Source: a virus
IMG/VR virus record: IMGVR_UViG_3300034104_006814
Location: 7,108 to 71,107 of that record
Length of the DNA stretch: 64,000 bases
Strand: one strand, 5' to 3'
Below are positions 50,295 through 64,000 of this stretch, in pieces; within the stretch, counting starts at the first letter, position 1, and each line of letters begins with the position of its first letter. The position numbers and the translations under genes are program-made. The notes under the pieces were generated by a model that did not search any database, was not told where the DNA came from, and was given only the letters and a program-made list of their open reading frames with translations.

Positions 50295-50384
50295 TGAAAG
50301 AGGTAAAATGAGGGAAAGTGAAAGAGGTAAAGTGAAAGAGGTGAAGTGAAAGAGGTGAAGTGAAAGAGGTAAAATGAGGGAAAG
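50295..50384. repeat. purine-rich direct repeats (TGAAAGAGGT x5, last four at 14-bp period)
   Basis: Copies at 50295, 50319, 50333, 50347, 50361. Confidence 0.9.
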
Positions 50385-50982
50385 CATCTGCCCCCTTTAT
50401 CTTTCTTTTCGTTCAATTCCTTAATGCAACTCACTTGCAATAACGCCCCACAATCCCGCTCGGGCAAAACATGCCGACAAAACTTCAAAATATCTCAAAA
50501 AACTACCGAACGGGAAAAACATGCCGACGAAATTTCCAAAAAATTATTTGACACGGGCCAAATAAACGTATATACTGGGACAAACTGTGCTTTGTAAACG
50601 CCTGCGCCGCAAGACGTTATGGCACCGAATAAAAACTTAACTCAAAAAAATCCAAAAAATTACTTGACACGAACCAAATAAGCGTCTTGCGGCGGGGGGT
50701 CAAAAAATTACCAAAAAATTACCAAATAAAGCCCAAATAACGGCCAGGACTTTTGGGGGGGTTTCGCAGCGTTTCGCACGATTTCAAATGTTTTCGTTAG
50801 ATTAGATAAGATCTGCTTATAATAGGAAGAATCAAAAATTAGCGGGAAAGAACGAAATAAAGGGTGAGGTTGGGGCCAGGGGCACCCCTGGCCTAGCACG
50901 TCCCATGCCAACTGGCATGGGATATTTTTTTGTTAAAAAGCTGTTGACCACCTCATTTGTATGTGGTTTAATTATCACCGTT

Positions 50983-51273
50983 ATGAACAACAACATTGTT
51001 ACCTCCACCTCCACTGAAACCGCAACTGTCAAGCGTGGGCGCGGTCGCCCGCATGGCAGCAACTCGTTTGAAAATGTGCAGATCAAGCATCTGCTTAATT
51101 TCCTTTCTGAGGATGCCAGCGTTCCTGTATCCAAGATCTGGATGCGCGACACGCTTGGTTGCATTATCGAAGCTCGTCCGTTGCAGGTTATCAAGAGTGA
51201 TGATACTACCCACCACATCATTGAACAACCAGAAGAAAAAGTTCAGTACGCACTCGAAACTTTCGAGGAATAG
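50983..51273 (+). CDS. AT-hook-containing small DNA-binding protein
   Basis: KRGRGRPHGS; TTGACC promoter upstream. Confidence 0.75.
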   Translation: MNNNIVTSTSTETATVKRGRGRPHGSNSFENVQIKHLLNFLSEDASVPVSKIWMRDTLGCIIEARPLQVIKSDDTTHHIIEQPEEKVQYALETFEE

Positions 51274-51313
51274 TTGTTGACTTGCCTTTTTAATTGCCTT
51301 ATATTCATTGCTT

Positions 51314-52246
51314 ATGTTTGACAACCTCATTGGACAACCCGAAATCAAAAAGCAGTTGGAATTTTATTCCAATGCTTATCAGAAAACGTCAGTCGTACCC
51401 TTTCTCCTACTCAATGGCGCAAAGGGTTTGGGTAAGACTGAGTTTCTCAAGCAGTTCAGCAAGTCGCTGACCAATGTGGACGGCAAGCCTCGTCCCATGC
51501 TTGAACTCAACAGCTCCACAATCAAGAACAATCAAATGTTCTTCGAGCAGATCTTCCTTCCGATTGTGCAGGGTAACGAAGTAACTCTTTTCTTTGATGA
51601 GTGTCACGCACTCCCCAAGGATTTGGTGATGGCATTCCTGTCCATCCTTAACACTGAGCGCACTCCTTTTAAGGAATTTAATTGGCGCGAATTTACTTTC
51701 CAATTTGACTTCACAAAGATTTCCATGATCTTTGCGACGACTGAGTTGGATAAGCTGTTCCCACCTCTAAAGGATCGTCTGACCATCCTCGACTTCAAGC
51801 CGTACAAAACGGATGAGTTAAGTCAGATCATTAAAGGTCGCCTCAATGACGTTGACTTCGAGGATGGTGTACTCGAAGATATTGCGAGCACCACTCGCGG
51901 CAATGCTCGTAGCGCAGTCAAACGCGCAAAAGAGATTGAGATTTACTGCGAGACTAACAACTCTGCCACCTTCTTCAAGGAGGAGTGGCTTGAGCTTCGC
52001 CAAATTCTCGGCATCAAACCTCTCGGTTTGTCAAACACTGAGATTCAAGTCTTGGAAATTCTTGCGGAACGCGGCCCATCTACACTCCAGACTATCGCAG
52101 CGGTCACGGGTATGTCACGCACTGCGATCCAGCGTGATGCCGAACTGTATCTTTTACAGCGTGGACTTATGAAGATCGATGGCACTCGCGAGATCACCAG
52201 AGCAGGAGTTGAAGTTCTGCATGAGATCACAGCAAAAGGTTTTTAG
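51314..52246 (+). CDS. ruvB: RuvB-like Holliday junction helicase
   Basis: FDNLIGQ, GAKGLGKT, FFDECH, FATT...PLKDR, RGNARSA, C-terminal wHTH (E.YLLQRGL). Confidence 0.8.
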   Translation: MFDNLIGQPEIKKQLEFYSNAYQKTSVVPFLLLNGAKGLGKTEFLKQFSKSLTNVDGKPRPMLELNSSTIKNNQMFFEQIFLPIVQGNEVTLFFDECHALPKDLVMAFLSILNTERTPFKEFNWREFTFQFDFTKISMIFATTELDKLFPPLKDRLTILDFKPYKTDELSQIIKGRLNDVDFEDGVLEDIASTTRGNARSAVKRAKEIEIYCETNNSATFFKEEWLELRQILGIKPLGLSNTEIQVLEILAERGPSTLQTIAAVTGMSRTAIQRDAELYLLQRGLMKIDGTREITRAGVEVLHEITAKGF

Positions 52247-52302
52247 AATGTGACTGGCTGGCCACAATAAAGTCCTACATGTGTAGGATCTACGAAAGTA
52301 GG

Positions 52303-52333
52303 AACCCTTGACTCCGTGAGTCAAGGGTTTTTT
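52303..52333 (+). terminator. intrinsic terminator
   Basis: AACCCTTGACTC-CGT-GAGTCAAGGGTTTTTT. Confidence 0.9.
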
Positions 52334-52518
52334 ATTTTAAAAGTTAAAGAAAAATTAACTAAATAAGGGCAAATAAGCGATTAGCTCCAGGGGTGCCCCT
52401 GGGCTCCAGCACAAAACCCCACAACCCTCTCGGGTTGTGGGGCTTAGGCTTAGGGGGAATTTTTATTTATTATTTTTGAAGTACGCCGCAGCAAACACTA
52501 GTACAGCGATCAACAGCA

Positions 52519-53064
52519 TCATAAAACTTGTCGATAGCAAGTCTCAAGGGTGATAAGTTCGAGGTCTTCGCTGATCGGGCGGAGCAGTCTGGCTTGCCAG
52601 TTCTTTGCCGTTTCGATCTGCGCGGGCGTGGGTCGAGCGGGATAGTAGGCGAAGATTCTGCCCGTCGTGCTGTTGCGGATGGCATGAGTCTTGCCGCGTG
52701 GGTGCATGAGCCATAGGGTGCCATCATAGCATCTTTCGGGAATCTTGCCTAGCTTCAACATCCACTTTCTCCACACGGGGGAATGAGAGAGAACCTTGCG
52801 CTCTTCATACTCCAAGGCGTGCGCCCATTCGTGGACGATGGTTTCTTGAATCTTGTCAAGGAAGTTTGGGATGCTAAGATTCAACGAAACAATCTTTGTG
52901 GACAGTTCGATGTACTTCATTCCCCGCTTGACAACGCAGCGACCCATTGCATTTGTCAATCGGGTATTCCAACGGAACGCCCAACCAGCAAGCTGTGGAT
53001 GATTGCGCTTGATGACTTCACTGAGTGAATTGTATTTTTCGGCAACTTGAGCAAATGTGGTCAT
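52519..53064 (-). CDS. SprT-like metalloprotease
   Basis: GRC...IELS, ETIVHEWAHAL, H...W. Confidence 0.85.
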   Translation of the reverse strand: MTTFAQVAEKYNSLSEVIKRNHPQLAGWAFRWNTRLTNAMGRCVVKRGMKYIELSTKIVSLNLSIPNFLDKIQETIVHEWAHALEYEERKVLSHSPVWRKWMLKLGKIPERCYDGTLWLMHPRGKTHAIRNSTTGRIFAYYPARPTPAQIETAKNWQARLLRPISEDLELITLETCYRQVL

Positions 53065-53065
53065 A

Positions 53066-53266
53066 TTAGCAAACTATGTTGTGCGCATCATTGTACAGAG
53101 CCGTACCTTCTTCGTCAATCTCAAAAGACTCGTCTAGGTAATGTTCATTACCCTCATTATTCACAGAGGCTTCCAAAGCAAATTCTTTTGCAGCTTCCAA
53201 CGATTCGGCTTGAATGTTGATGGTTCCGTATGTGGTGTATTGATAAGCAATTTTATATGTTTTCAT
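53066..53266 (-). CDS. small acidic hypothetical protein
   Basis: MKTYKI...IQAESLEAAKE. Confidence 0.7.
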   Translation of the reverse strand: MKTYKIAYQYTTYGTINIQAESLEAAKEFALEASVNNEGNEHYLDESFEIDEEGTALYNDAHNIVC

Positions 53267-53267
53267 A

Positions 53268-53453
53268 TTAGTCTTCGTCTCTGAACATAACCTCATCCTC
53301 GATATAGTCAATCAAATTCAACAGCCCGTCCATATGTTCGCGCATTTCATCTGTCCACTCAATTTTTTCATCCATCAGTTTGTAGAGTGTTTGTTTTTGT
53401 TTGCTTAGGAGATCGGGGCAAACACTGATTTCGATGTCGTAGATGGGTTTCAT
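53268..53453 (-). CDS. hypothetical protein
   Basis: LLSKQKQTL...DGLLNLIDYIED. Confidence 0.7.
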   Translation of the reverse strand: MKPIYDIEISVCPDLLSKQKQTLYKLMDEKIEWTDEMREHMDGLLNLIDYIEDEVMFRDED

Positions 53454-53477
53454 ATATTTAAGCAATTAAAAAAGTGA

Positions 53478-53552
53478 TGGTGGTTCTAGCTGGATTCGAA
53501 CCAGCAATAATTCTTTAGAAGAGAACTGTGATATCCCTTTCACCATAGAACC
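53478..53552 (-). tRNA. tRNA-Arg(UCU)
   Basis: Anticodon loop CTTCTAA, GGTTCGAATCC, CCA. Confidence 0.9.
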
Positions 53553-53595
53553 ATTGTTCACTTGGATATTATTTAGGTGTAATACTTACTGAACT

Positions 53596-54105
53596 ATGGA
53601 TAAAATTACACTAGAGCACCTCATAAGTCAAGGGCTTTCTTCGCATGAAATTGCGAAAAAGATGAACTGCGGCCAAACAAACATTATGTACTGGATGAAA
53701 AAACATAATTTAAAAACTTTAAACAGAGTTCGAGAACAAAAAGAGAAGAAGTGTCCTCGATGTCAATCTTTTTTTGATCTCTCTTTTTTTTATCAAAGAC
53801 GAGGTAAAATTGGAGGTTCTGTTTATTGTAAGAATTGCACTTCCGCGCAAACAGTAGAAAGACAAAAAAGATTTAAAATAGAATGCGTAACCTATAAAGG
53901 TGGTTGCTGTCAATCATGTAATTATTCAAAATCTCTTTCTGCTTTAGAATTTCATCACATAGATAAGGGAGAAAAAGATTTTGAAATATCAAGAGCAAAA
54001 TTAAAAACATTTAATGATTCAATTAAGAAGGAGTTAGATAAATGCGTTCTACTTTGTGCAAATTGCCATAGAGAAGAACATGATAAAAGTCAACCAGAAA
54101 CTTGA
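53596..54105 (+). CDS. HNH endonuclease with N-terminal HTH
   Basis: YKGGCCQSC, ALEFHH, ELDKCVLLCANCHRE. Confidence 0.9.
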   Translation: MDKITLEHLISQGLSSHEIAKKMNCGQTNIMYWMKKHNLKTLNRVREQKEKKCPRCQSFFDLSFFYQRRGKIGGSVYCKNCTSAQTVERQKRFKIECVTYKGGCCQSCNYSKSLSALEFHHIDKGEKDFEISRAKLKTFNDSIKKELDKCVLLCANCHREEHDKSQPET

Positions 54106-54170
54106 AAAGTTTCTGGAAAAGTGCGTAATAATAACACTTGACAGCCAGGCCAGGGGCACCCCTGGCGGGG

Positions 54171-55040
54171 TCACACCCGCAACTGTAACACTGCAAGATT
54201 CTTTTGTTTTGCTTCTAACTCTATGTCTACATTACTGTACTTAGGAAGAGATACGACATAGTCGCTGTGCGCACGATCCAAGGCGTGGTCTTTACCCTCA
54301 GAGTAATGAAACAAAGGAGTTACACCTTTCCATGTAGAAACACAGAAATCGTGAGCTTCTTGTTCAGTCTCACCCTCGTTGTTAATCAAGCGGTGATGAT
54401 AGTCTAATGTAATGGGAACATTAGAAAAGTATTGTGCGATCTTCTGATAAGTCCAGAAAGATTTATCTTCCGTCTCAAACACTAAGCGAGAGGTAACACT
54501 ATAAGATAATAGAGCAAAATTCTTGATAGCATTAACAGCCGCGATTTCTCCTAGCTTACCATTAGAGATGTGAATGTTAATCGGGTAAAAGAAATCTTGT
54601 GGAATCTCTAGCATATCAAACATCTTAGCATGATATTCGAGGTTCTTAATTCCTTTCTTGTTTACTTCTTCATTGTCTGAAGAGATAACACAAAATTGAT
54701 CGGGGTGTGTGCTGACACGACCACCCGCAGAAAGATAATCACGGATAGCTTGACGAGCTTCTAACCAAAAGTATTCCTTAGAACAAAAGAAGTTCCAATA
54801 ATGTTCAAACTCCTCATGGTCAGCGAGCGGGAACATATCGGATGAAATGCGGTACATCCAAATCTTTTCTTTGGTCAAATACTTTAATGCCTTGACAAGC
54901 TCACTGAGATTGTGGCGATAGACATCAAAAATCTTTTCTTGAGGTTTAGCCTCGGCTTGCGTGCGTTTAAGCTGCAAAGTCTTGAACTTGGTGGCTTCAT
55001 CACCAAGAATCAAACAACAAACTCCAATACGATTAGACAT
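54171..55040 (-). CDS. uvsE: UV damage endonuclease
   Basis: IGVCC, YRISSDMFP, STHPDQF, INIH, ETED, TLDYHH, PLFHYSE, RAHSDY, ELEAKQK. Confidence 0.93.
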   Translation of the reverse strand: MSNRIGVCCLILGDEATKFKTLQLKRTQAEAKPQEKIFDVYRHNLSELVKALKYLTKEKIWMYRISSDMFPLADHEEFEHYWNFFCSKEYFWLEARQAIRDYLSAGGRVSTHPDQFCVISSDNEEVNKKGIKNLEYHAKMFDMLEIPQDFFYPINIHISNGKLGEIAAVNAIKNFALLSYSVTSRLVFETEDKSFWTYQKIAQYFSNVPITLDYHHRLINNEGETEQEAHDFCVSTWKGVTPLFHYSEGKDHALDRAHSDYVVSLPKYSNVDIELEAKQKNLAVLQLRV

Positions 55041-55113
55041 ATAGACAGAATAGCTAAAAATTACAGAGAGTCAAAACAAATAACAACCAATTAAAACCAG
55101 GGGCACCCCTGGG

Positions 55114-55188
55114 TGGTGGATAGGGAGGGACTCGAACCCTCAACCAACGCCTTAAAAGGGCGCTGCTCTACCATTGAGCTACCTATCC
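55114..55188 (-). tRNA. tRNA-Lys(UUU)
   Basis: Anticodon loop CTTTTAA, CCA; 3' end 1 nt from a palindrome copy. Confidence 0.93.
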
Positions 55189-55253
55189 TTTGTGCCAGAG
55201 CCTCCCCCGCACTCGCGGGGGAGGATGGATGACACCAAACCAACCAACAGAAA

Positions 55254-55547
55254 TTATTTTCTTGCAGACTCGAAACAATGCCCAGCATGAGCATCGAGAT
55301 AAGCCCGAATAGAACCAATGTTTGACCATTGGACTTGTCGCTGCGCTCTGGCTTTCAGCCACGCCTCATCACCCAGAGGGTAGTAATCACGAGAATGAAA
55401 TTCTATTTCTTGAAACACGCTTTCAAACTGCTGAAGCGCTTTCAATGCTTCAAAGTACTGATGCCCCAACTTTGAACCATCGTTTCCACCCATGTGGATG
55501 ATGGGCAACTGCATTTCGGGATATTGTTCTGCAACGTATGTATTCAT
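55254..55547 (-). CDS. hypothetical phage protein
   Basis: PIIHMGG...FHSRDYYP; start moved to ATG 55547. Confidence 0.75.
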   Translation of the reverse strand: MNTYVAEQYPEMQLPIIHMGGNDGSKLGHQYFEALKALQQFESVFQEIEFHSRDYYPLGDEAWLKARAQRQVQWSNIGSIRAYLDAHAGHCFESARK

Positions 55548-55563
55548 TTTATTTGATTGTAAT

Positions 55564-55649
55564 TGGTACTGATGGCGGGACTCGAACCCGCACGCCCTAA
55601 AGGGCAACAGATTTTAAGTCTGTTGTGTCTGCCATTTCACCACATCAGC
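55564..55649 (-). tRNA. tRNA-Leu(UAA)
   Basis: Anticodon loop CTTAAAA, long variable arm, CCA. Confidence 0.93.
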
Positions 55650-55663
55650 ATTAGAAAGTCAAG

Positions 55664-55736
55664 TGGGAACGGTGGGACTCGAACCCACACTCAAGCGATT
55701 ATGAGTCGCCTGCTTTAACCTTTAAGCTACATTCCC
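55664..55736 (-). tRNA. tRNA-Ile2(CAU), lysidine type
   Basis: GCAGGCGACTCATAATCGCTTG anticodon arm typical of Ile2; CCA not encoded. Confidence 0.85.
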
Positions 55737-55743
55737 GTGAAGA

Positions 55744-56058
55744 TTAAAAAGAACCAACAATAATGTTAGACTCAGGAAAGCCCGATTCTGGATAATTGAT
55801 CCAGTCACCTTCGTCAACAGAGTAGCCCAACTCCGTGAGTGCTGTCAAGGCTGCATTTTCAAACCATCCTTCTTTGAAGGCCCACACGAAATCGCCATTG
55901 ACATCTACCAAAGTATAATCTTTGATGTTAGACGAATCATATTGATCGTCAGTCTTCAGAAAATACCCAACATGGCCCAGAACATCTGAATAAAGATATT
56001 CGGGATTTTCGATATTGATTGTTTCGTCTGCGCCTTCGAAGGTGATCGTGTAGGTCAT
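55744..56058 (-). CDS. acidic hypothetical protein
   Basis: ATG 6 nt after -10 box. Confidence 0.75.
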   Translation of the reverse strand: MTYTITFEGADETINIENPEYLYSDVLGHVGYFLKTDDQYDSSNIKDYTLVDVNGDFVWAFKEGWFENAALTALTELGYSVDEGDWINYPESGFPESNIIVGSF

Positions 56059-56260
56059 GCATTCAATCTATCACAGAATCAGAGGAGAGCAACAGAAATC
56101 TTCACGAATGTGAAGATTTTCAAAGTTTACCTAAATAACTGTTAATAAAGGACTTAGCTCCAGGGGTGCCCCTGGGCGAAAAAAATGCAGGCCGCGCATG
56201 GCGCGACCTGCATTGATGGGGGGAGAAGCGGCGGGCCGTAACCCGCCGCCCCCGTGGGGC

Positions 56261-57028
56261 TTACTCAGCCGCCGCAAGTTCCTCAACGTCAACCGCTTCC
56301 ACCTCGATCACGCTGGAGTGACCCGCCCGCGTATCGAACAGGGACTGCATAACCATCGTCCGCGCAGGGAGTTTGGTCAGGTCAGAACCCTTGAGGTTCT
56401 CGGTGACCGCGTTGTACAAGTTCCACAACGTAGGGCTGTTGAACTCGGGATGGCGCGGAGCCTTGAACTCTTGGATGACGGGGAACAGGTCGCGAGCGGG
56501 AAGTGCCTTGCTTTCAGCGAGTTGCACCGCGAGGGCGCACGCATCGTTGAATCCGATCTCGGTTTGCTGATAGCGGTTGATCCGCGTTTCCATGTCAGTC
56601 CAGTGCGAGAGCAAACGCCCGATTGCTTCACTCAGCACGCGGGGAATGTCGCGGAGGATGTTCGTCGTGTGACGACGGGCGAGCTTGATGTCTGATGAGA
56701 AACAGAGGTTCTCACAAACGATCATGCGGTTGCCCACACAAATCGAAGCGGCGAAGGTGCGGTCGTGCGAGTTGCGCAATCCCAGAACGAGCTTGCGTTC
56801 GCTGCTGTTGATGTCAGGCCCAGCGATCTGGAACCCGCCGAAGTACCGCTGGCCGAAGCGGGCGAGAGCGTGCTTCTCTTCAGTGACGGAGTAGCCCGCA
56901 CGATCCAGAGCTTCCAAGGTCTGATCGACCAGAAAGGAATGTGCGATGGGCGTGAAGGAATCGGTCGCATCAGGCGTGCGGACGGTGGCGAGTTCTTCAC
57001 GGGTGACGAGGTTTTTTGCAATGATCAT
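56261..57028 (-). CDS. DUF932/DUF945 family protein
   Basis: PIAH, LGLRNSHDRTFA...G.RMIVCENL, TLWNLYNAVTE. Confidence 0.85.
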   Translation of the reverse strand: MIIAKNLVTREELATVRTPDATDSFTPIAHSFLVDQTLEALDRAGYSVTEEKHALARFGQRYFGGFQIAGPDINSSERKLVLGLRNSHDRTFAASICVGNRMIVCENLCFSSDIKLARRHTTNILRDIPRVLSEAIGRLLSHWTDMETRINRYQQTEIGFNDACALAVQLAESKALPARDLFPVIQEFKAPRHPEFNSPTLWNLYNAVTENLKGSDLTKLPARTMVMQSLFDTRAGHSSVIEVEAVDVEELAAAE

Positions 57029-57214
57029 GGTGTGATGATGTTGATGGTTTGAACTAACGATGAAAACAATACCACAACCAAAGCGGAGTTCAACGGTTTT
57101 TTTTGATTTTGTTCATCTTTTTCAATACAAGACCCATGCCAAGCGCAAATATTTTTGCGCTTGGACGTAATAGTGCTTGACGGCCCAGGCCAGGGGGGCC
57201 CCTGGCGTCAACGG

Positions 57215-57240
57215 AAAAACCCCGCTTTCGCGGGGTTTTT
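57215..57240 (-). terminator. intrinsic terminator (bidirectional-looking)
   Basis: AAAAACCCCGC-GAAA-GCGGGGTTTTT. Confidence 0.85.
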
Positions 57241-57304
57241 AATCCTTTCTATCTCTTTGATGCTGTGACCATTGCGCACAGCACCAACACGCTGATGATC
57301 AGGA

Positions 57305-58009: not shown

Positions 58010-58162
58010 GAAAAGAAGATACCAAAAAAGCAGAGAAGCGCAACAAAAAAGAATAAAAAAAGAACAAACTATTACGCACCTTGTGCGTAATAGTGCTTGA
58101 CACGCCCCCCAGGGGCACCCCTGGCTCCACAACCCTTTCGGGCTGTGGAGGTTGGGATTCAG

Positions 58163-58390
58163 CTAGACATATTCTAGCGCAATAGCTAACAGACTAAGCG
58201 CATTGTTTACATCTAAAACAACGTCTTTTTCCACTTTGCCATTGATTGCGGAAGTGTATCGCACATTAGGGAAGTCGAGCTTGTGAAACTTCAGAACCAT
58301 AATCGTGTCTTTGACTTTTTTCTGAAGAATGATGCTGGTAGATTCGATGAGCATGTTCGCTGCCTGCTTGAGGGTGTCTTTCTTTGCCAT
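58163..58390 (-). CDS. hypothetical protein
   Basis: MAKKDTLKQ; ATG 6 nt after -10. Confidence 0.7.
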   Translation of the reverse strand: MAKKDTLKQAANMLIESTSIILQKKVKDTIMVLKFHKLDFPNVRYTSAINGKVEKDVVLDVNNALSLLAIALEYV

Positions 58391-58539
58391 ACAAAAAAGA
58401 TAGCACAACTAGACCGCAGCACAATAAAAAAGAATAAATATTACGCACTTTGTGCGTAATAGACATAATGCGCGCCAGGGGCACCCCTGGTTGCAAACGC
58501 CCCACAACCCTTTCGGGCTGTGGGGGTTAGCTTTACCCA

Positions 58540-58824
58540 CTACTGAATGGAAATTGCTTCCCAGTTCTTTGCTTTCACTTCTCTGATGTTAGCAAGATAC
58601 AAAGTGCGGTAACCGAAGTTTGTTCTGTCTCCATCTTTGCTCACAGCATAGAGCGTGACAGTTCCCTTGGGCGCATAATTCGTGCCACCTTTAAGATCCT
58701 TCTTTACTCCAGTGCGCACTACATAACGCGAGACATCACCCAGCTTGTTCCTGTAAAGAACAGAAAAGAACTTGCCTTTGGTGGAGTCAATGATTTGTTG
58801 TTTTGTTTTGTTGAAGTTATCCAT
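58540..58824 (-). CDS. WYL_2/SH3-like fold phage protein
   Basis: GKFFSVLYRNKLGDVSR...RTGVKKDLKGG...GYRTL. Confidence 0.65.
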   Translation of the reverse strand: MDNFNKTKQQIIDSTKGKFFSVLYRNKLGDVSRYVVRTGVKKDLKGGTNYAPKGTVTLYAVSKDGDRTNFGYRTLYLANIREVKAKNWEAISIQ

Positions 58825-58887
58825 ATTGTTTAGATTTTGCAGATTGGGTGTAGATCATCTCTTGCCATCAACTCTTCTTCAGTCATA

Positions 58888-59133
58888 TTACCAAACTGTT
58901 GATTCAATTTCCTGAGCGTGTTCTGTGCGGATTTCAGCGATCCAAGCGAAATGCTCAAGAGCTTTTTCGGTTGTTCTGATATTTTCTTTGTTCAATTCAT
59001 CATAGATCTCTTTTCGAGTCCAGCACTCAACAATCTCTTGCCAACCATAAGAATCATGATATGAGGCTTTCGCAAGAAACTGTACAGCTTCAACAAGGTT
59101 CAGTAGCAAGTGGGTTTCGTCAATGGGATTCAT
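58888..59133 (-). CDS. hypothetical protein
   Basis: YGWQEIVECWTRKEI. Confidence 0.7.
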   Translation of the reverse strand: MNPIDETHLLLNLVEAVQFLAKASYHDSYGWQEIVECWTRKEIYDELNKENIRTTEKALEHFAWIAEIRTEHAQEIESTVW

Positions 59134-59252
59134 ATTGGACTTTCATTAAAGCATGAGAGCAGCAAGAGAGCAAATAAAAAAGACAAATATTACGCACTTT
59201 GTGCGTAATAGACATAATGCGGGCCAGGGGCACCCCTGGATATAAAAGGAAT

Positions 59253-59280
59253 AAAAAACCCCGCCTTTCGGCGGGGTTTT
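59253..59280 (-). terminator. intrinsic terminator
   Basis: AAAACCCCGCC-GAAA-GGCGGGGTTTTTT. Confidence 0.88.
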
Positions 59281-59295
59281 CCTTGACTTGGTCAA

Positions 59296-59553
59296 CTAGA
59301 CACTTGCCACACTGTGATCGAGTTTCAGGAGTTCAGGTGATGGGTCGAGATACCAAGTCTTGCTTCTACCCTTTGAGTCAAGCTCATTGAGTGAGAAAAA
59401 TGAATTGTCGGCAGAACCGATAGTGCAGGGAAAATACTTGAGCGTAGCTCCTTTCGACAGCTTCCTCTTGATATTGTCAAGAGAAATGTGGAAGTTTTTG
59501 TAGATCACGCTGTTCGTGGTGGTGTGGGCAACTTTGATTGTCGGTGTCTTCAT
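59296..59553 (-). CDS. hypothetical protein, paralogue of 61215-61451
   Basis: MKTPTIKVAH...PSPELLKLDH. Confidence 0.8.
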   Translation of the reverse strand: MKTPTIKVAHTTTNSVIYKNFHISLDNIKRKLSKGATLKYFPCTIGSADNSFFSLNELDSKGRSKTWYLDPSPELLKLDHSVASV

Positions 59554-59705
59554 AACGTAGAGAATATTGCCATAACTATGGAAAGATACAAACAAAAAAG
59601 AAGAAAAAAACAAAGATTACGCACTTTGTGCGTAATAGGCATGATGCGCGCCAGGGGTAGCCCTGGCCCCACAACCCTTTCGGGCTGTGGGGTTTACGCT
59701 GTCCA

Positions 59706-59963
59706 CTAAACTAGCGGAGTGGCTTTCGATGGGATGAACAGCCTGCCTCTGTAGAGGTGCTCTTGAGCGATGTTGTCCCAACCGAATACTTCGTAGGATT
59801 CGCCACTTTTGTGACGCTGGATGACGCGATTATCTGGCAACATACAGTCGTGCAGAGTGGTTGCGAAAACAGGAACCATGCCATCTTCGCAATCAAACCA
59901 TGCATAGAGGTTCTCACTGAAGATGGTATTTTTCCACTGAATCATGATGGTGTCTTTAGGCAT
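59706..59963 (-). CDS. hypothetical protein
   Basis: ATG 6 nt after TATACT. Confidence 0.75.
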   Translation of the reverse strand: MPKDTIMIQWKNTIFSENLYAWFDCEDGMVPVFATTLHDCMLPDNRVIQRHKSGESYEVFGWDNIAQEHLYRGRLFIPSKATPLV

Positions 59964-59983
59964 ACAAACAGTATAGCACAGTT

Positions 59984-60247
59984 TTACTCGGAATCAACAA
60001 AACCTTCCGCAATTTCTTTCCAATCAACCTTCGTGAGGAACTGATTCATCACACAAGCTGCAAGATCTGAAAGAGTATGCATTTCAAATTCTATTTCCGA
60101 AACTATGCTTTCGAATGCTTCCGCAAGCTCATCAATTGAGCGATAGTGGTTTTCATTTGCAATGTTTTGGAAAGTGTCCTCATAGGTGAGGCGCGTGTTC
60201 CAAGTTTCCCAGTTTTTCCAGCCGTTGTATTTAGCGTTGTCTGTCAT
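59984..60247 (-). CDS. hypothetical phage protein (YNGW.NWETW family)
   Basis: YNGWKNWETW...VDWKEIA. Confidence 0.8.
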   Translation of the reverse strand: MTDNAKYNGWKNWETWNTRLTYEDTFQNIANENHYRSIDELAEAFESIVSEIEFEMHTLSDLAACVMNQFLTKVDWKEIAEGFVDSE

Positions 60248-60273
60248 ATAAGCAATTTAGTTGATGTTCGCGG

Positions 60274-60393
60274 TTAGTCAATTATTTTCATGATTAAATC
60301 TTGGATTAGTGCAACTAATCCAAAAATGCCTAGCGATAAGAAACCCGCTAGAAAGAAGTTGAAGAAGAGTTCGAAGCCAGAGAGTAAATCCAT
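60274..60393 (-). CDS. 39-aa single-TM peptide (not in ORF track)
   Basis: MDLLSGFELFFNFFLAGFLSLGIFGLVALIQDLIMKIID behind TTGATT-16-TAAAGT. Confidence 0.6.
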   Translation of the reverse strand: MDLLSGFELFFNFFLAGFLSLGIFGLVALIQDLIMKIID

Positions 60394-60549
60394 ATTTGTC
60401 ACACGCGAACTTTACACCCAACAGAGTAGAAATCAAATAAAAAACATAAATATTACGCACTTTGTGCGTAATAGCCATGATGCGCGCCAGGGGCACCCCT
60501 GGGGGTTCGCCCCACAACCCTCTCGGGTTGTGGGACTTAGGTTCGCCTC

Positions 60550-60762
60550 TTACTTTGCCTGCTTGATGCCTGCTTCAATTAGCATTTCATCGAACTGACT
60601 CAGGACTTTGAGCTTGCTGCCCTTCAGGGCGAACTCTTTCTTGATCTGCGCATATGCAGAACATCCCTTAATGGGATAGATCCCTTTGGTTTCGAGCTTC
60701 AGGGCGCTTGCCAGCATCAGGAGGCGATAAGCGGAGATTTGTTCGGGTGTGTTAAATGTCAT
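60550..60762 (-). CDS. hypothetical phage protein
   Basis: LASALKLETKG...SAYAQIKKEFALKGSK. Confidence 0.75.
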   Translation of the reverse strand: MTFNTPEQISAYRLLMLASALKLETKGIYPIKGCSAYAQIKKEFALKGSKLKVLSQFDEMLIEAGIKQAK

Positions 60763-61019
60763 ATGTTGTGGATGTTGACGTTGTTGATTGCGCAGTAGTC
60801 CAGAGCTTTCTGGATGTCTTCTTGGTTGTTCAGGAAGTAGGTGGTGTGCCCCTCCTGAAGCGGATGTTCGATGTTCAGGCTAATGCACCGCTCACCATTA
60901 GGCAAGTTAAATGATGCTGCACTAATTACCTTGCGGTAAGAAGTGTCAACAGTAACCTTGCTGTTGATTTCGTTGCGGATGTAGGTGGTGGAGAACGTGG
61001 GTTTCAGTGTCAATTTCAT
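60759..61019 (-). CDS. hypothetical protein
   Basis: Behind TTGCAA-16-TATCTT. Confidence 0.7.
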   Translation of the reverse strand: MKLTLKPTFSTTYIRNEINSKVTVDTSYRKVISAASFNLPNGERCISLNIEHPLQEGHTTYFLNNQEDIQKALDYCAINNVNIHNI

Positions 61020-61168
61020 TGCTTAGGTAAGATATCAAATCCCCGACGCTTTGCAATTAAAAATGACTAAAAAACAAAAACAATTTCCGTGCCAACCCAA
61101 ACATTAATCAAGCGCTATGTAATAGTGCTTGACATCGGCCCCAGGGGTGCCCCTGGCATATGCGCAAT

Positions 61169-61196
61169 AAAAAACCCCGCCTTTCAGCGGGGTTTT
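61169..61196 (-). terminator. intrinsic terminator
   Basis: AAAACCCCGCT-GAAA-GGCGGGGTTTTTT. Confidence 0.88.
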
Positions 61197-61214
61197 GTTG
61201 TCGATTGCTCTTGA

Positions 61215-61451
61215 CTACTTCCAGAAGTCGTGTTCGAGCTTCGAGAGTTCAGGGGATGGCTCAAAGAACCAATTCCTATAGCGCCCTTTCTTATCCCGCT
61301 CTTTCAGGACGAAGAACGGCAGGTTCCCCATATAGTGCGAGAGCTTCGCACCTTTTTCGATTTTCTTCTTGATCTTGTCGATGGAAAAACGCAGGTGCGT
61401 GTAGATCGTGTCGTTGTTGGAGTGCGTGACCTTAATGGTTGGTTTCTTCAT
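61215..61451 (-). CDS. hypothetical protein, paralogue of 59296-59553
   Basis: MKKPTIKVTH...PSPELSKLEH. Confidence 0.8.
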   Translation of the reverse strand: MKKPTIKVTHSNNDTIYTHLRFSIDKIKKKIEKGAKLSHYMGNLPFFVLKERDKKGRYRNWFFEPSPELSKLEHDFWK

Positions 61452-61593
61452 AACGGAATTGAATGTATCACAGGCTAACGCATAGGCAAATAAAAAAGAC
61501 AAATATTACGCACTTTGTGCGTAATAGGCATAATGTGGCCAGGGGTAGCCCTGGCCCCACAACCCTTTCGGGCTGTGGGGTTTACGCTTGAGG

Positions 61594-62058
61594 CTAGGCG
61601 TGAGTCGCACGCTCGAAGCGTGATGCAGATTCCTCAATTAGCTCTTCGCGCATTGCTTCGATTGCCATTGCAATCTTGGCTAAGTCGTCTGCGTTGAGAC
61701 ACTTATCACGAATCTCTCTGATTATGTTATCTGAGTGGTTGGTTGGCTTGCGGTTAGAAAACTTCATGACTTCATGAGCTTCGATGAAGCAAGCGACCTG
61801 CATTTGTCCAGACAATTTGCGAAGCGTCTTTTCTTTGTAGTCCAAAGCAAAAATGCAAATCGTCCAATTCAGCGCGGGCGCGGGCGAATAAATCTCCACT
61901 CCGTATCCGTTCGGGAACTCGTACAGATAAGAGTTGAGATTGAGGTCTTTCACGCGGAAGCTGTCTAGCTTCGCATTGTTTTCCTCATTAAGCAATTCGC
62001 TGTACTGCGAAGGAAGGCTTTCAACATACTGGGCAATCTGCTCAATCGTGTATTTCAT
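61594..62058 (-). CDS. hypothetical protein
   Basis: YEFPNGYGV; C-terminal NADDLAKIAMAIEAMREEL. Confidence 0.75.
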   Translation of the reverse strand: MKYTIEQIAQYVESLPSQYSELLNEENNAKLDSFRVKDLNLNSYLYEFPNGYGVEIYSPAPALNWTICIFALDYKEKTLRKLSGQMQVACFIEAHEVMKFSNRKPTNHSDNIIREIRDKCLNADDLAKIAMAIEAMREELIEESASRFERATHA

Positions 62059-62214
62059 GGCGCAGTCAATATAGCATACAACGCAGCAAAAGATACATAA
62101 AAAAATGAAATATTACGCACTTTGTGCGTAATAGGCATATTGCGCGCCAGGGGCACCCCTGGGGGCAAACGCCCCACAACCCTCTCGGGTTGTGGGGGTT
62201 GCATGGGGAGGAAG

Positions 62215-62409
62215 CTACTCCGCGAACATCGCTTTCCACTCTTCGGGCGTGATGCCCGTCTTCAGGAACTCCCGCTGGTCAGGAGTCAAGTTGGGGAATG
62301 CGTTCTGGATCAGAGCGCCGTTTTGCCATGCGGCGATCTGCTCCTCCGTGATGGGGAGGTCGAGCGAGTGAACCTTGTTGGTTGCGAGGGAGGTGCGGGT
62401 GATGATCAT
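62215..62409 (-). CDS. hypothetical phage protein
   Basis: MIITRTS...LIQNAFPNLTPDQREFLKTGITPEEW. Confidence 0.8.
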   Translation of the reverse strand: MIITRTSLATNKVHSLDLPITEEQIAAWQNGALIQNAFPNLTPDQREFLKTGITPEEWKAMFAE

Positions 62410-62410
62410 A

Positions 62411-62536
62411 TTAGTCGATGAGGTTGGTGATGGTGTAAGCGAGCAGAGAGAGAATCGCAGTAATCGGTACAAAAGTAAAGAAAATCTTCGTGAAAACCTG
62501 AAGCACAATAATCATTTCGTAATTAGCATTTAGCAT
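62411..62536 (-). CDS. 41-aa single-TM peptide
   Basis: MLNANYEMIIVLQVFTKIFFTFVPITAILSLLAYTITNLID; ATG 6 nt after TATAGT. Confidence 0.6.
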   Translation of the reverse strand: MLNANYEMIIVLQVFTKIFFTFVPITAILSLLAYTITNLID

Positions 62537-62700
62537 GTCCGAACTATACCGCATGACGCTTAAAAAACAATTAAAAAACAAAACAATTTCCGTGCCAAAC
62601 CCAAACATTTCTCAAGCACTATGTAATAGTGCTTGACGGCCCAGGCCAGGGGCACCCCTGGCCCCACAACCCTTTCGGGCTGTGGGGGTTAGGTGGGATG

Positions 62701-62976
62701 CTAGTCCATCCCGAAGCACTCCGTCTGCGACTCCCAGAAGGAGTCGAGGAAGCGGTCTTCTCTGTCGCACTCCGCGTCAAGCGCGATAAACTCATCGCGC
62801 TCAAACCGCTCAACCTGAGCGAGTTCCTCATCCACTTCAGCTTGGCGATCCTGAAGGGTGAACTCGATCTGGGTTGCGAGCGAGGCGAGCGCGGCGAGCT
62901 GGTCGTTCGTGAGCGCGGACGCGGGGGTTTCTTTGATGGCGGCGACGAGGGCGAGGATGTGAGCGGAATTAACCAT
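62701..62976 (-). CDS. acidic helical hypothetical protein
   Basis: ATG 6 nt after TACATT; ends LDSFWESQTECFGMD. Confidence 0.75.
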   Translation of the reverse strand: MVNSAHILALVAAIKETPASALTNDQLAALASLATQIEFTLQDRQAEVDEELAQVERFERDEFIALDAECDREDRFLDSFWESQTECFGMD

Positions 62977-63132
62977 GCCCAAAATGTACCGCATTTCAGA
63001 AAAGAGCGCAATAAAAATTAAAAACAATTCCTATGCCAAACGCAAAATTTTTGCGTTTGGGCGTAATAGTGCTTGACACGCGGCCAGGGGCGGCCCTGGC
63101 CCCACAACCCTTTCGGGCTGTGGGGTTTACGA

Positions 63133-63390
63133 TTACTCGTAGTCTTCGTCCGTGCCCCAGCCCGCGCTCGCAAGCCACTCCGCGTCCGCGCCGTCATCGG
63201 ACGGCTCGCCGTCGTCGATGCACCCGTCGTTGCAGCCGTCGCAACCGCCGTCGCAACCGTCGCAACGGTCGTCGGGCGCGGCCTCCGCAAGCTCCTCGCG
63301 CATGGCCTCGACGGCCATCGCGACCTGCGCGAGGCAGTCGGCGTTCATGTGGTTTGCGCGGATGAGGGAGATCAGTTCGTTCGTGGTCAT
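63133..63390 (-). CDS. very acidic Cys-rich small protein
   Basis: CDGCDGGCDGCNDGC...DAEWLASAGWGTDEDYE; ATG 6 nt after TACAAT. Confidence 0.8.
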   Translation of the reverse strand: MTTNELISLIRANHMNADCLAQVAMAVEAMREELAEAAPDDRCDGCDGGCDGCNDGCIDDGEPSDDGADAEWLASAGWGTDEDYE

Positions 63391-63547
63391 GTGGCAATTG
63401 TACCAAAAAAACTGTGTTTTGCAATATGCTATTTTCATGCCAACCAAAACTAAAAATTTCACTAAATCAGCGTAATAGAGCTTGACACGCTGCCAGGGGC
63501 AGCCCTGGCCCCACAACCCTTTCGGGCTGTGGGACTTAGGCTCGCGC

Positions 63548-63784
63548 CTACATGAGCTGCAACTCGCCCTCAAACCCCTGCGCGACAAGGGTGCCACCCT
63601 TGTACACCCACACCCAACAGTCGGCCCAGTTCGTGGCCGTACTCCGCTCGTACTGATCCCACGCCTGCGCGCTCGCGCAGGCCATAGCCTTCGAGAGGCT
63701 ACGGCTCATCCCGCGCCCGTGCGGGTGGACGCCCTCCCTGTTGGTGAAGATCGCGTAGCGGACAGTGAAGAAGTTCGTAGTCAT
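63548..63784 (-). CDS. hypothetical protein
   Basis: ATG 6 nt after TATAAT. Confidence 0.75.
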   Translation of the reverse strand: MTTNFFTVRYAIFTNREGVHPHGRGMSRSLSKAMACASAQAWDQYERSTATNWADCWVWVYKGGTLVAQGFEGELQLM

Positions 63785-63936
63785 GCGGTAATTATAGCAA
63801 ACAAACTGTGTTTTGCAATATGCTATTTTCATGCCAACTAAAACTAAAAATTTCATCAAATGTGCGTAATAGTGCTTGACAGCGGCCAGGGGCACCCCTG
63901 GGCGCTTGTCAAGTATTTTTTCTGTTTTTTTTGCAC

Positions 63937-63963
63937 AAAAAAGCCCCGCCTTTCGGCGGGGCT
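63937..63963 (-). terminator. intrinsic terminator of next cassette (gene outside window)
   Basis: AGCCCCGCC-GAAA-GGCGGGGCTTTTTT. Confidence 0.85.
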
Positions 63964-64000
63964 AAGTTGCTGCGCCCGTGCGGGTTACACCAGATGCGCA

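What the first reader, a model, noticed from the sequence alone, without database searches (positions are those of the whole stretch)
50876..63963. Array of modular expression cassettes delimited by an invariant palindrome CCAGGG-N4-CCCTGG (18 copies)
Seen: 18 intergenic copies (50876, 52387, 54150, 55097, 56160, 57190, 58109, 58475, 59224, 59651, 60487, 61141, 61539, 62147, 62646, 63084, 63493, 63886), about 0.4-1.8 kb apart. I saw none in the first 50 kb. Both 6-bp arms are perfect in every copy, while the 4-nt centre varies (GCAC, GTGC, GGGC, GTAG, GCGG, GCAG). Read on the minus strand, most junctions have the same order: gene stop > hairpin > palindrome > CTATTAC motif > control box > sigma70-type promoter > next gene. 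The units between copies mostly hold 1-3 unrelated small genes or tRNAs. Inference: no compensatory change in the arms argues for a site read by a dimeric protein rather than an RNA stem. It could be a recombination site for shuffling or capturing cassettes (integron-like logic without attC features), a transcription roadblock/insulator, or a nucleoid-organising, segregation or DNA-entry site in the early region. No recombinase is visible in this window, and the array continues past the right edge.
Basis: partly seen in the sequence, partly recalled or inferred. Interest (0 to 1): 0.92.

Follow-up and report, generated by a model that had tools for sequence, protein, structure and literature searches.

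The report
Invariant palindrome joining phage early-gene cassettes
An uncultured lake-water phage strings its small early genes together as self-contained promoter-gene-terminator units, each joint carrying the same 16-base palindrome, and related phages have swapped units at these joints, much like cassettes already described in T4-type phages.

Summary
There are 18 exact CCAGGG-N4-CCCTGG copies at the stated places, none elsewhere in the 71-kb phage contig, and 0 in 100 shuffles.

The copies lie in a GC-rich island of minus-strand early genes. Each joint reads: gene stop, GNRA hairpin, palindrome, second stem-loop with T-run or a box, sigma-70-type promoter, near-leaderless ATG.

Four related contigs carry 54 more exact copies. 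More distant relatives have a different palindrome of their own at the same joints.

Cassette order and content differ between relatives. The promoter segment follows the downstream gene, so the exchange point lies at or just before the palindrome. No integrase or resolvase was found.

Best reading: a PeSL-like terminator/promoter joint. Its fixed core is read by sequence as double-stranded DNA, probably by a symmetric protein, and serves as the shared homology for cassette exchange. The binding protein is unknown.

The integron-like reading is only partly supported. This scan has noted similar arrays before on other phage DNA, relatives of this phage included. Verdict: a new variant of a known kind, of moderate interest.

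The parts
63886..63901 (.). palindrome J1 (CCAGGGGCACCCCTGG), flanked by TTGACA-N5 ... N5-TGTCAAG
63493..63508 (.). palindrome J2
63084..63099 (.). palindrome J3
62646..62661 (.). palindrome J4
62147..62162 (.). palindrome J5 (class A joint)
61539..61554 (.). palindrome J6 (class A joint)
61141..61156 (.). palindrome J7
60487..60502 (.). palindrome J8 (class A joint)
59651..59666 (.). palindrome J9 (class A joint)
59224..59239 (.). palindrome J10 (class A joint). Homology with G001 stops exactly at its edge.
58475..58490 (.). palindrome J11 (class A joint)
58109..58124 (.). palindrome J12 (class A joint)
57190..57205 (.). palindrome J13
56160..56175 (.). palindrome J14
55097..55112 (.). palindrome J15, directly after tRNA-Lys. 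Scored as terminator-like with the T-run that follows.
54150..54165 (.). palindrome J16
52387..52402 (.). palindrome J17 at the convergent junction. No promoter follows it on either strand. It is kept in all five lineage-I contigs.
50876..50891 (.). palindrome J18. On the plus strand it precedes a stem-loop with T-run, a promoter, and the ATG at 50983 (91 nt away).
59667..59692 (-). example of the GNRA hairpin that abuts the palindrome (CCCCACAGCCC-GAAA-GGGTTGTGGGG). It has a G.U pair on the sense strand only.
59188..59210 (-). example of the class A 23-bp palindrome TATTACGCACAAAGTGCGTAATA followed by a T-run. Scored as terminator-like. There are seven such in the window.
63791..63818 (-). 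example of a cassette promoter: TTGCAA-16-TATAAT, with the ATG 6 nt after the -10
63548..63784 (-). cassette gene, 78 aa, no family
63133..63390 (-). cassette gene, 85 aa, no family
62701..62994 (-). cassette ORF, 97 aa (likely start at 62976)
62215..62608 (-). two small genes of one cassette (62411-62608 ORF and 62215-62409)
61594..62058 (-). cassette gene, 154 aa
61215..61451 (-). cassette gene, 78 aa, paralogue of 59296-59553
60550..61019 (-). two genes of one cassette (86 and 70 aa)
59706..60393 (-). three genes of one cassette (39, 87 [DUF7249] and 85 aa)
59296..59553 (-). cassette gene, 85 aa
58540..59133 (-). two genes of one cassette (81 and 94 aa). In G001 they are separate cassettes in the other order.
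58163..58390 (-). cassette gene, 75 aa
57305..58009 (-). cassette gene, 234 aa, Pfam GP88 family
56261..57028 (-). cassette gene, 255 aa, DUF932
55114..56058 (-). cassette with two genes (104 and 97 aa) and tRNA-Met, tRNA-Leu(TAA) and tRNA-Lys(TTT)
54171..55040 (-). cassette gene, 289 aa, UvdE-type endonuclease
52519..53552 (-). cassette with SprT-like gene (181 aa), two small genes and tRNA-Arg(TCT)
53596..54105 (+). HNH endonuclease gene, 32% GC, opposite strand, inside the same cassette
50983..52246 (+). plus-strand cassette: small AT-hook protein (50983-51273) and RuvB homologue (51314-52246)

Best explanation
The palindrome is the constant core of a repeated joint that separates self-contained early-gene cassettes of a lytic-looking lake phage.

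Shown. Each joint, read on the gene strand, has this order: the upstream gene's RNA hairpin (usually a GNRA loop, with variable stems and G.U pairs); then the invariant CCAGGG-N4-CCCTGG; then a second stem-loop with a T-run (class A) or a GTCAAG/CTATTAC box (class B); then a sigma-70-type promoter whose -10 lies about 6 nt before the ATG. This is the layout of the PeSL (promoter-early stem-loop) terminator/promoter cassettes of T4-type phages. Related phages carry the same joints with different cassette order and content, and the promoter segment travels with the downstream gene.

Inferred. (a) The 16-mer is read as double-stranded DNA by its sequence, most likely by a symmetric (dimeric) protein of the phage or the host that marks or insulates each cassette boundary. 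Odds about 0.5. (b) Because it is the one stretch shared by all joints, it also serves as the homology patch at which ordinary homologous recombination, not a site-specific recombinase, exchanges, deletes and inserts cassettes. Cassettes that keep the tag stay exchangeable, which helps keep it invariant. Odds about 0.7. The binding protein is not identified.
For: Real and confined. 18 of 18 copies are exact, there are 0 in shuffles, and none lie outside the GC-rich island.

Conserved in relatives. G001-G004 have 14, 15, 10 and 15 exact copies, giving 72 with this contig, against 3 one-mismatch copies and 1 centre-less copy. This holds although the body DNA is only 65-82% identical.

Sequence rather than structure. 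Information is 2.0 bits in the arms against 0.0-0.8 in the 45 nt on either side before the T-rich stretch, though the arms were selected as exact. Centres vary (13 kinds), and four kinds occur in both orientations. The 60 nt upstream of each palindrome fold on the gene strand into hairpins with many different stems. 35 of 72 have GAAA loops, 62 of 72 have at least one G.U pair, the sense strand is the more stable in 49 of 72, and 47 of 72 end 0-2 nt before the palindrome. The palindrome itself has no wobble variant in 72 copies.

Lineage-specific switch at the same joints. L080/L082 have a 27-bp GTAAGTCGTTGA-N3-TCAACGAGTTAC palindrome around a GGGGCCCC core. L081 has G7-8-CTG-C7-8. L117 has GACCCC-N3-GGGGTC (7 copies). 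L125 has TAGTACGT-NN-ACGTACTA (7 copies).

PeSL layout. 26 promoter-like sites were found against 15.4 in shuffles, and 29 terminator-like sites against 15.0. Seven of the terminator-like sites are class A stem-loops with a T-run. TANNNT lies 6 nt before the ATG in 24 joints. The distance from palindrome to ATG is 87-91 nt in 27 of 67 joints that had an ORF, and 91 nt on the other strand at J18.

Exchange. Cassette families are reordered among the five contigs. By tblastx, 19 junction pairs are homologous on both flanks against 88 on one flank only. Promoter identity is 0.805 when the downstream gene is shared and 0.667 when only the upstream gene is shared (Mann-Whitney p = 3e-5, pairs not independent). 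The corresponding hairpin figures are 0.715 and 0.643 (p = 0.105). Alignments break at the palindrome edge.

No recombinase. Phage_integrase was found in 0 of 5 records and Resolvase in 0 of 5.

Literature. PeSLs are sigma-70 promoters plus stem-loops, often polyG followed by polyC, that terminate transcription and mediate modular shuffling (PMC2839356, section 13 and abstract read; PMC4122927, abstract read).
Against: No protein that binds the site was found. Ten small cassette proteins gave no credible DNA-binding domain, and the model of the conserved AT-hook protein was too poor to use.

The 16-mer can fold as a 6-bp RNA hairpin of -9 to -11 kcal/mol. In class A joints a stem-loop with a T-run follows it, so it may be transcribed in the 3' UTR.

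The arms were selected as exact matches, so the 2.0-bit figure is partly circular. Only the count of 72 exact against 4 decayed joints is independent of that.

Invariance could come from concerted evolution among repeats rather than from a binding protein.

Spacing to the promoter is tight only in G002-G004 (21 of 37). It is loose in this contig (4 of 16) and in G001 (2 of 14).

The palindrome's centre follows neither flank clearly.

Not all rearrangements map to the palindrome.

The hairpin-to-upstream-gene linkage is only a trend.

All genomes are incomplete (25-87%), so a recombinase or regulator could lie on unseen DNA.
Confidence: 0.5

Rival explanations
1. RNA element. The palindrome is a second hairpin in a multi-hairpin 3' UTR or terminator (the PeSL stem-loop proper), or a processing or antitermination signal. 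On this reading its invariance comes from copying among repeats.
For: It folds to -9.2 to -10.7 kcal/mol. It sits 0-2 nt after the upstream hairpin in 47 of 72 joints. It precedes a stem-loop with T-run in seven joints, and J15 with its T-run scores as a terminator. PeSL stem-loops are often polyG followed by polyC and terminate in vivo (PMC2839356, section 13). The centre is biased in orientation on the gene strand (CTAC 23 against GTAG 5).
Against: There is no G.U or compensatory variant in 72 copies, while neighbouring hairpins vary freely. The loop is unconstrained but the stem is invariant, the reverse of known protein-RNA hairpin recognition (established knowledge, recalled). All 3 one-mismatch copies would break pairing in RNA of the gene strand. 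Lineage II has a GGGGCCCC core that cannot make a useful hairpin. GTGC (13) and GCAC (10) both occur. The orientation bias can be inherited by descent.
Confidence: 0.22
2. Site-specific recombination site of a cassette-capture system (integron-like or shufflon-like), served by an unseen or novel recombinase.
For: Cassette gain, loss and reordering occur with break points at the palindrome edge. The arms are invariant and the short centre is variable, like a core site. Centre pairs occur in both orientations. Contigs of two runs join 58102 to 63488, within 7 nt of two palindromes.
Against: There is no Phage_integrase or Resolvase in 5 of 5 records, one of them 87% complete. Each cassette has its own promoter and terminator. 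The centres differ among copies, which would block exchange by known recombinases (established knowledge, recalled). Some break points lie in other repeated boxes or inside cassettes. The contig joints lie in repeated sequence and may be assembly-graph paths.
Confidence: 0.08
3. DNA-structure element. The palindromes extrude as cruciforms or ssDNA hairpins that are handled by the phage's own RuvB-type motor and its AT-hook partner, or act as topological barriers between cassettes.
For: A full-length RuvB homologue and a conserved AT-hook protein sit at the array's end in every lineage. Perfect Watson-Crick symmetry without wobble fits a DNA structure. Other lineages have 12-bp arms.
Against: 6-bp arms are too short for stable extrusion (established knowledge, recalled). 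A structure alone does not explain sequence invariance. An earlier scan note on a relative (e1-6110508, unchecked) judged the neighbouring palindromes not to be the motor's substrate.
Confidence: 0.05
4. Restriction- or defence-related site. It would be a target, decoy or methylation site, since each copy holds two CCWGG in a genome that otherwise avoids them.
For: CCGG occurs 0 times against 35-80 expected in G000 and G002-G005. Outside the palindromes CCWGG is 2-4 fold depleted, and 36 of 56 CCWGG in this contig lie in palindromes.
Against: Lineages with other palindromes avoid CCWGG as well (21 against 66 expected in G005), so the avoidance is independent of the palindrome. No methyltransferase or nuclease was linked to it. 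The position at every joint is not explained.
Confidence: 0.04

Closest known systems
PeSLs (promoter-early stem-loops) of T4-type phages RB49/phi1, T4/PST and KVP40/nt-1 (PMC2839356, section 13 and abstract read; PMC4122927, abstract read)
   Same: Both are repeated intergenic joints made of a sigma-70-type early promoter, an AT/T-rich stretch upstream of -35 and a stable G/C-rich stem-loop. Both are concentrated among small genes of unknown function. Both act as terminator plus promoter. Both are the points where relatives differ by insertion, deletion and replacement through homologous recombination.
   Different: This is not a T4-type phage. It has a lambda-J-like tail protein and no T4 markers were seen. 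The joint holds an extra, strictly invariant interrupted palindrome beside the variable hairpins. Each lineage has its own palindrome. Genes are near-leaderless rather than having Shine-Dalgarno sites. The cassettes form one GC-rich island in an AT-rich genome. Mini-circles are not shown here.
17-bp palindromic repeat TGTTCGG-N3-CCGAACA of Cluster O mycobacteriophages (PMC4351075, section 8 read)
   Same: Both have invariant arms with a free centre and no clear orientation. Both number tens of copies. Both are enriched in short intergenic gaps of a leftward early arm. Deletions between copies are seen in relatives. The authors suggested a dimeric binding protein, and the function is unknown.
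   Different: About a third of the Cluster O sites lie inside genes and most are not near promoters. Here all copies are intergenic and tied to terminator/promoter joints. The sequence and the phage group are unrelated.
Stoperators of Cluster A mycobacteriophages (PMC9283540, abstract read only)
   Same: Both are many copies of one short site spread between genes. Stoperators are bound by one protein that stops transcription elongation, a precedent for a boundary or roadblock role.
   Different: Stoperators are asymmetric, bound by a monomeric immunity repressor of temperate phages, and oriented. Here the site is symmetric, and no repressor or integrase was seen.
Integron attC sites and gene cassettes (recalled, no call)
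   Same: Both form an array of small, unrelated genes separated by a repeated palindromic element, with cassette content varying between relatives.
   Different: There is no IntI-type integrase. attC sites are long, imperfect and read by structure. Integron cassettes lack promoters and share one Pc promoter, whereas here each cassette has its own promoter and terminator.

Membership tests
PeSL cassettes | sigma-70-type early promoter in the repeated motif | tested here: met
   26 promoter-like sites against 15.4 in shuffles, for example TTGCAA-16-TATAAT. TANNNT lies 4-11 nt before the ATG in 40 of 72 joints.
PeSL cassettes | stable stem-loop that can terminate or attenuate, often polyG followed by polyC | tested here: inconclusive
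   Hairpins upstream of the palindrome average -23.7 kcal/mol. There are 29 terminator-like sites against 15.0 in shuffles. The palindrome itself is a G-run/C-run. Termination was not measured.
PeSL cassettes | AT-rich stretch upstream of -35 | tested here: met
   A T-rich consensus lies at +35 to +45 after the palindrome, at 0.6-1.1 bits.
PeSL cassettes | placed among small, variable genes of unknown function | tested here: met
   Most cassette genes are 39-154 aa without a family.
PeSL cassettes | indels and replacements between close relatives occur at the motifs | tested here: met
PeSL cassettes | host phage of the T4 type | tested here: not met
   No T4-type markers among the proteins scanned. 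There is a lambda-J-like tail protein, and the terminase matches generic PHROGs. Only part of the genome was seen.
PeSL cassettes | mini-circles formed between neighbouring motifs | not testable with these tools
   Only contigs, not raw reads, were available. One 'goes back 1111' joint is ambiguous.
Integron | IntI-type tyrosine recombinase next to the array | tested here: not met
   PF00589 in 0 of 5 records. The records are 49-87% complete.
Integron | promoterless cassettes driven by one common promoter | tested here: not met
   Each cassette has its own promoter-like site and hairpin.
Integron | attC: imperfect, variable-length palindrome read by structure | tested here: not met
   A fixed 16-mer with perfect arms in 72 copies.
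Stoperator system | asymmetric site, oriented with transcription, plus an immunity repressor of a temperate phage | tested here: not met
   The site is symmetric, both centre orientations occur, and there is no integrase. A repressor was not searched for specifically.
Cluster O-type palindromic repeat | invariant inverted arms, free centre, tens of copies per genome | tested here: met
   This is an analogy only; there is no sequence or phage relationship.

The most novel reading that the evidence does not exclude
The palindrome is the address tag of a cassette-exchange system not yet described. A lineage-specific, symmetric DNA-binding protein or nuclease, possibly working with the conserved AT-hook protein and the RuvA-less RuvB motor encoded at the array's end, would recognise the tag and promote capture, excision and reshuffling of promoter-gene-terminator units without a tyrosine or serine recombinase. 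The tag and its reader would have switched specificity at least five times in this phage group.
Probability: 0.08. Interest if true: 0.85.

Novelty: new variant of a known kind. Interest (0 to 1): 0.5.

Why it matters
The finding shows that PeSL-style modular early-gene cassettes are not confined to T4-type phages. Here they carry a sharper signature: one strictly invariant interrupted palindrome per lineage, replaced by a different palindrome in each related lineage.

That pattern points to a reader that recognises sequence and has not been identified, and it gives a concrete target for finding it. The joints also mark where accessory early genes, the likely host-takeover and anti-defence genes, are exchanged among co-occurring lake phages. 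The tag can therefore be used to find and delimit such genes in metagenomes.

This scan has met similar arrays repeatedly, including in relatives of this phage. So the phenomenon looks general while its mechanism remains open.

Tried and rejected
Searches for close isolates. A DNA search of the array against 50,697 phage records found only a tRNA-sized hit. Protein searches with a glycosyltransferase and with the DUF932 gene found only distant Xanthomonas/Stenotrophomonas jumbo phages and Salinibacter phages. The phage type and host stay unknown.

Palindrome-only scan of IMG/VR with the centre fixed as GNNC. It gave 67 stretches, and only G001 had an array. This pattern missed G002-G004, whose centres differ. 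They were found through the RuvB gene.

Genome-contig scan with the same pattern. The 80 printed rows each hold a single site (one place, counted on both strands), in diverse bacteria. It gave no host clue and no array.

Rfam. Only tRNAs were found.

Pfam on ten small cassette proteins. Only DUF7249 passed its cut-off, and no DNA-binding domain was found.

AlphaFold2 of the AT-hook protein with 8 sequences. Mean pLDDT was 60.7 and pTM 0.29, so no fold search was made.

Ungapped identity profile anchored on the palindrome. Indels blurred it, so the gapped comparison was used instead.

Reads. All 24 runs are kept as contigs, so no RNA ends, strand or circles can be read from them. DNA contigs stop at the joint repeats, as expected of assembly graphs. 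None of the 9 RNA contigs of run X24 (a 90-95% identical relative) crosses a palindrome, but cover is thin, so this is no more than a hint. The joints 58102>63488 (two runs), 63509>58067 and 59181>58071 lie in repeated boxes and may be graph paths.

The sigma-54-like TGGCAY-N5-TTGY box of class B joints (first noted in the scan note e1-6175990). A strong sigma-70 -35/-10 pair overlaps it and most copies have GT rather than GC at -12. I did not pursue it.

A genome-end or DNA-entry role is rejected, because in G002-G004 the contig runs on past the array.

Supplementary files of the PeSL papers (reporter data, figure S1) were not seen.

Full report
OBSERVATION. None was found in 100 dinucleotide-preserving shuffles. 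The window is bases 7108-71107 of a 71,107-base IMG/VR virus record that CheckV rates 53% complete. The whole record holds the same 18 copies and no others, and the reversed-pattern control gave 0. There are no one-mismatch copies in this record. The copies lie in the last 13 kb. That stretch is 42-55% G+C, against 26-37% in the first 50 kb.

ANATOMY. Almost all genes in the stretch are on the minus strand. Read on that strand, the joints have a common order. First comes the stop codon. Then comes an RNA-type hairpin, then the palindrome. Next is either a 23-bp palindrome TATTACGCAC-AAA-GTGCGTAATA followed by a T-run (class A, seven joints) or a GTCAAGCACTATTACG box (class B). Last come a -35/-10 pair and an ATG that often lies 6 nt after the -10.

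A consensus scan found 26 promoter-like sites against 15.4 in shuffles, and 29 terminator-like sites against 15.0. All seven class A stem-loops with their T-runs score as terminators on the minus strand.

I folded the 60 nt upstream of each of the 72 palindromes of this contig and four relatives:
- They form hairpins averaging -23.7 kcal/mol.
- The stems are of many different sequences.
- 35 of 72 have a GAAA loop.
- 62 of 72 have at least one G.U pair.
- The gene strand is the more stable in 49 of 72.
- In 47 of 72 the hairpin ends 0-2 nt before the palindrome.

With a simple first-ORF rule, the distance from the palindrome to the ATG is 87-91 nt in 27 of 67 joints. By contig that is 21 of 37 in G002-G004, 4 of 16 here and 2 of 14 in G001. 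J18 (50876) has the same layout on the other strand: palindrome, stem-loop with T-run, promoter, and an ATG 91 nt away. J17 (52387) lies between convergent terminators with no promoter, and it is kept in all five contigs.

CARGO. The larger cassette genes are a RuvB homologue (aligned over residues 2-287 to solved RuvB), an SprT-like protein, a UvdE-type endonuclease, a DUF932 protein and a GP88-family protein. An HNH endonuclease of 32% G+C sits on the opposite strand. The rest are 39-154 aa proteins without a family. Four tRNAs lie in the array: Arg-TCT, Lys-TTT, Leu-TAA and Met.

RELATIVES. A composite pattern found one IMG/VR relative, G001, with 14 palindromes, and 14 metagenome stretches. 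The RuvB gene found G002, G003 and G004, at 80-82% protein identity, with 15, 10 and 15 exact palindromes. Their centres are mostly GTAG/CTAC. In all there are 72 exact copies, 3 with one mismatch and 1 that lacks the centre. This holds although the bodies of the genomes are only 65-82% identical in DNA.

In G002-G004 the contig runs on past the array into a plus-strand arm with PhoH, a ferredoxin-like gene, an ERCC4-type nuclease and the large terminase. So the array is a GC-rich leftward early arm inside the genome, not a genome end.

More distant relatives keep the layout but have other palindromes:
- L080/G005 and L082 (58% identity): a 27-bp GTAAGTCGTTGA-N3-TCAACGAGTTAC, in pairs around a GGGGCCCC core. 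All 13 such cores in the 112-kb G005 lie within 97.6-107.5 kb.
- L081/G006 (41%): G7-8-CTG-C7-8 flanked by TTGAC...GTCAA.
- L117 (61%): GACCCC-N3-GGGGTC, seven copies.
- L125 (39%): TAGTACGT-NN-ACGTACTA, seven copies, each beside a G-run/C-run.
- L122 (39%): CACTTGGCACG...CGTGCCAAGTG.
- L118-L121 and L124: no exact palindrome repeated four times or more.

EXCHANGE OF CASSETTES. I clustered the units between palindromes. The distal large-gene cassettes are shared, while the small-gene cassettes are reordered, gained or lost among the five contigs.

Of junction pairs from different contigs, 19 are homologous on both flanks by tblastx and 88 on one flank only. The 110 nt after the palindrome are 0.805 identical when the downstream gene is shared, and 0.667 when only the upstream gene is shared (Mann-Whitney p = 3e-5; the pairs are not independent). 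The 45 nt before it are 0.715 identical when the upstream gene is shared and 0.643 when only the downstream gene is shared (p = 0.105). Background values are 0.57-0.68. Pairwise alignments show homology stopping at the palindrome's edge.

The unit that moves is therefore promoter-gene(s)-terminator, and the exchange point lies at or just before the palindrome. It is not the only such point. The two genes at 58540-59133 share one cassette here but are separate, reordered cassettes in G001. One contig joint in a lake metagenome lies in the class A box.

No Phage_integrase and no Resolvase domain was found in five records. One of them is 87% complete, and the controls were positive.

DNA OR RNA. 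The 16-mer could form a 6-bp RNA hairpin, and in class A joints it may be transcribed. Five points argue for a site read as duplex DNA:
- The arms never vary and never show wobble, while the neighbouring RNA hairpins do both.
- The centre is free, and four kinds of centre occur in both orientations.
- The three one-mismatch copies would break pairing in RNA of the gene strand.
- The lineage II core is too short to fold.
- Other lineages have long perfect palindromes with 2-3 nt centres.
That each lineage has its own invariant palindrome fits a reader whose specificity has switched. The orientation bias of the centre (CTAC 23 against GTAG 5) can be explained by descent of same-sense copies.

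WHAT IS KNOWN. The layout and the behaviour match PeSLs of T4-type phages. These are repeated sigma-70 promoter plus stem-loop motifs, often polyG followed by polyC, among small variable genes. They are shown to promote and to terminate, and they mediate modular shuffling by homologous recombination (PMC2839356, abstract and section 13 read; PMC4122927, abstract read).

An invariant interrupted palindrome of unknown function, with deletions between copies, is described for Cluster O mycobacteriophages (PMC4351075, section 8 read). Stoperators give a precedent for one protein acting at many intergenic sites (PMC9283540, abstract only).

The present case differs in five ways: the phage group, the strictly invariant tag beside variable hairpins, the lineage-specific tags, near-leaderless genes, and a single GC-rich island.

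Earlier notes of this scan describe similar arrays in other phages and in relatives of this one, and reach the same comparison. They are unchecked AI notes and not independent evidence.

VERDICT. The protein-site inference is the better-supported reading but is unproven. The integron-like model is not supported beyond the fact that cassettes are exchanged at the joints. This is a new variant of a known kind, of moderate interest.

Noticed in passing
whole contig and relatives G001-G005: CCGG is absent: 0 copies against 35-80 expected in G000 and G002-G005, and 1 in G001. GTAC and ACGT are also low. CCWGG is depleted 2-4 fold outside the palindromes. GGWCC is absent from the arrays of this contig and G002, the two checked. 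This is a strong restriction-avoidance signature.
   Followed up: partly
window 1-50000 against 50001-64000: The early island is 42-55% G+C and the rest 26-37%. The phage tRNAs (Arg-TCT, Lys-TTT, Leu-TAA, Met, Tyr, Asn, Thr-TGT) read A/U-rich codons. This suggests a higher-GC host, early genes tuned to host tRNAs, and late genes served by phage tRNAs. An earlier scan note on a relative draws the same inference.
   Followed up: partly
window 50180-50400: Tandem GTGAAAGAGGT-type repeats in an AT-rich non-coding stretch, followed by two consensus-like plus-strand promoters (for example TTGACA-17-TATACT at 50548-50576). They lie just upstream of the AT-hook/RuvB gene pair. This may be an origin or control region.
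   Followed up: no
window 50983-52246: A small protein with a KRGRGRP AT-hook motif is followed by a full-length RuvB homologue without RuvA. The pair is conserved next to the cassette array in the lineages checked by tblastn (10 loci).
   Followed up: partly
window 53596-54105: An HNH endonuclease gene of 32% G+C lies on the opposite strand inside a 40-50% G+C cassette beside tRNA-Arg. It looks like a later insertion.
   Followed up: no
window 59296-59553 and 61215-61451: Two paralogous 78-85 aa genes sit in separate cassettes. They have the same kind of canonical terminator (AACCCCGCC-GAAA-GGCGGGGTT with a T-run), unlike the GNRA hairpins without a T-run elsewhere. The terminator travels with the gene.
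   Followed up: partly
L006 (G001) right end, G001 62158-63990: The relative's contig ends in a C-run/G-run. It carries five or so further minus-strand genes without the palindrome, after two one-mismatch copies. The array decays at its upstream end.
   Followed up: partly
L103/L104 (G003) about 62188: One joint has CCAGGGCCCTGG: both arms are intact but the 4-nt centre is missing, and it sits ahead of a normal class A/B box.
   Followed up: no
L077 and L078 9211-9424: Four to five copies of TAGGCA-N5-TGCCTA about 70 bases apart lie upstream of the AT-hook/RuvB pair in G002 and G003. This is a different palindrome array.
   Followed up: no
window 57126-63837 (class B joints): A conserved TTGGCAYG-N4-TWGY box resembles a sigma-54 -24/-12 element and recurs as palindrome arms in lineages L081 and L122. 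It overlaps strong sigma-70 -35 boxes.
   Followed up: partly
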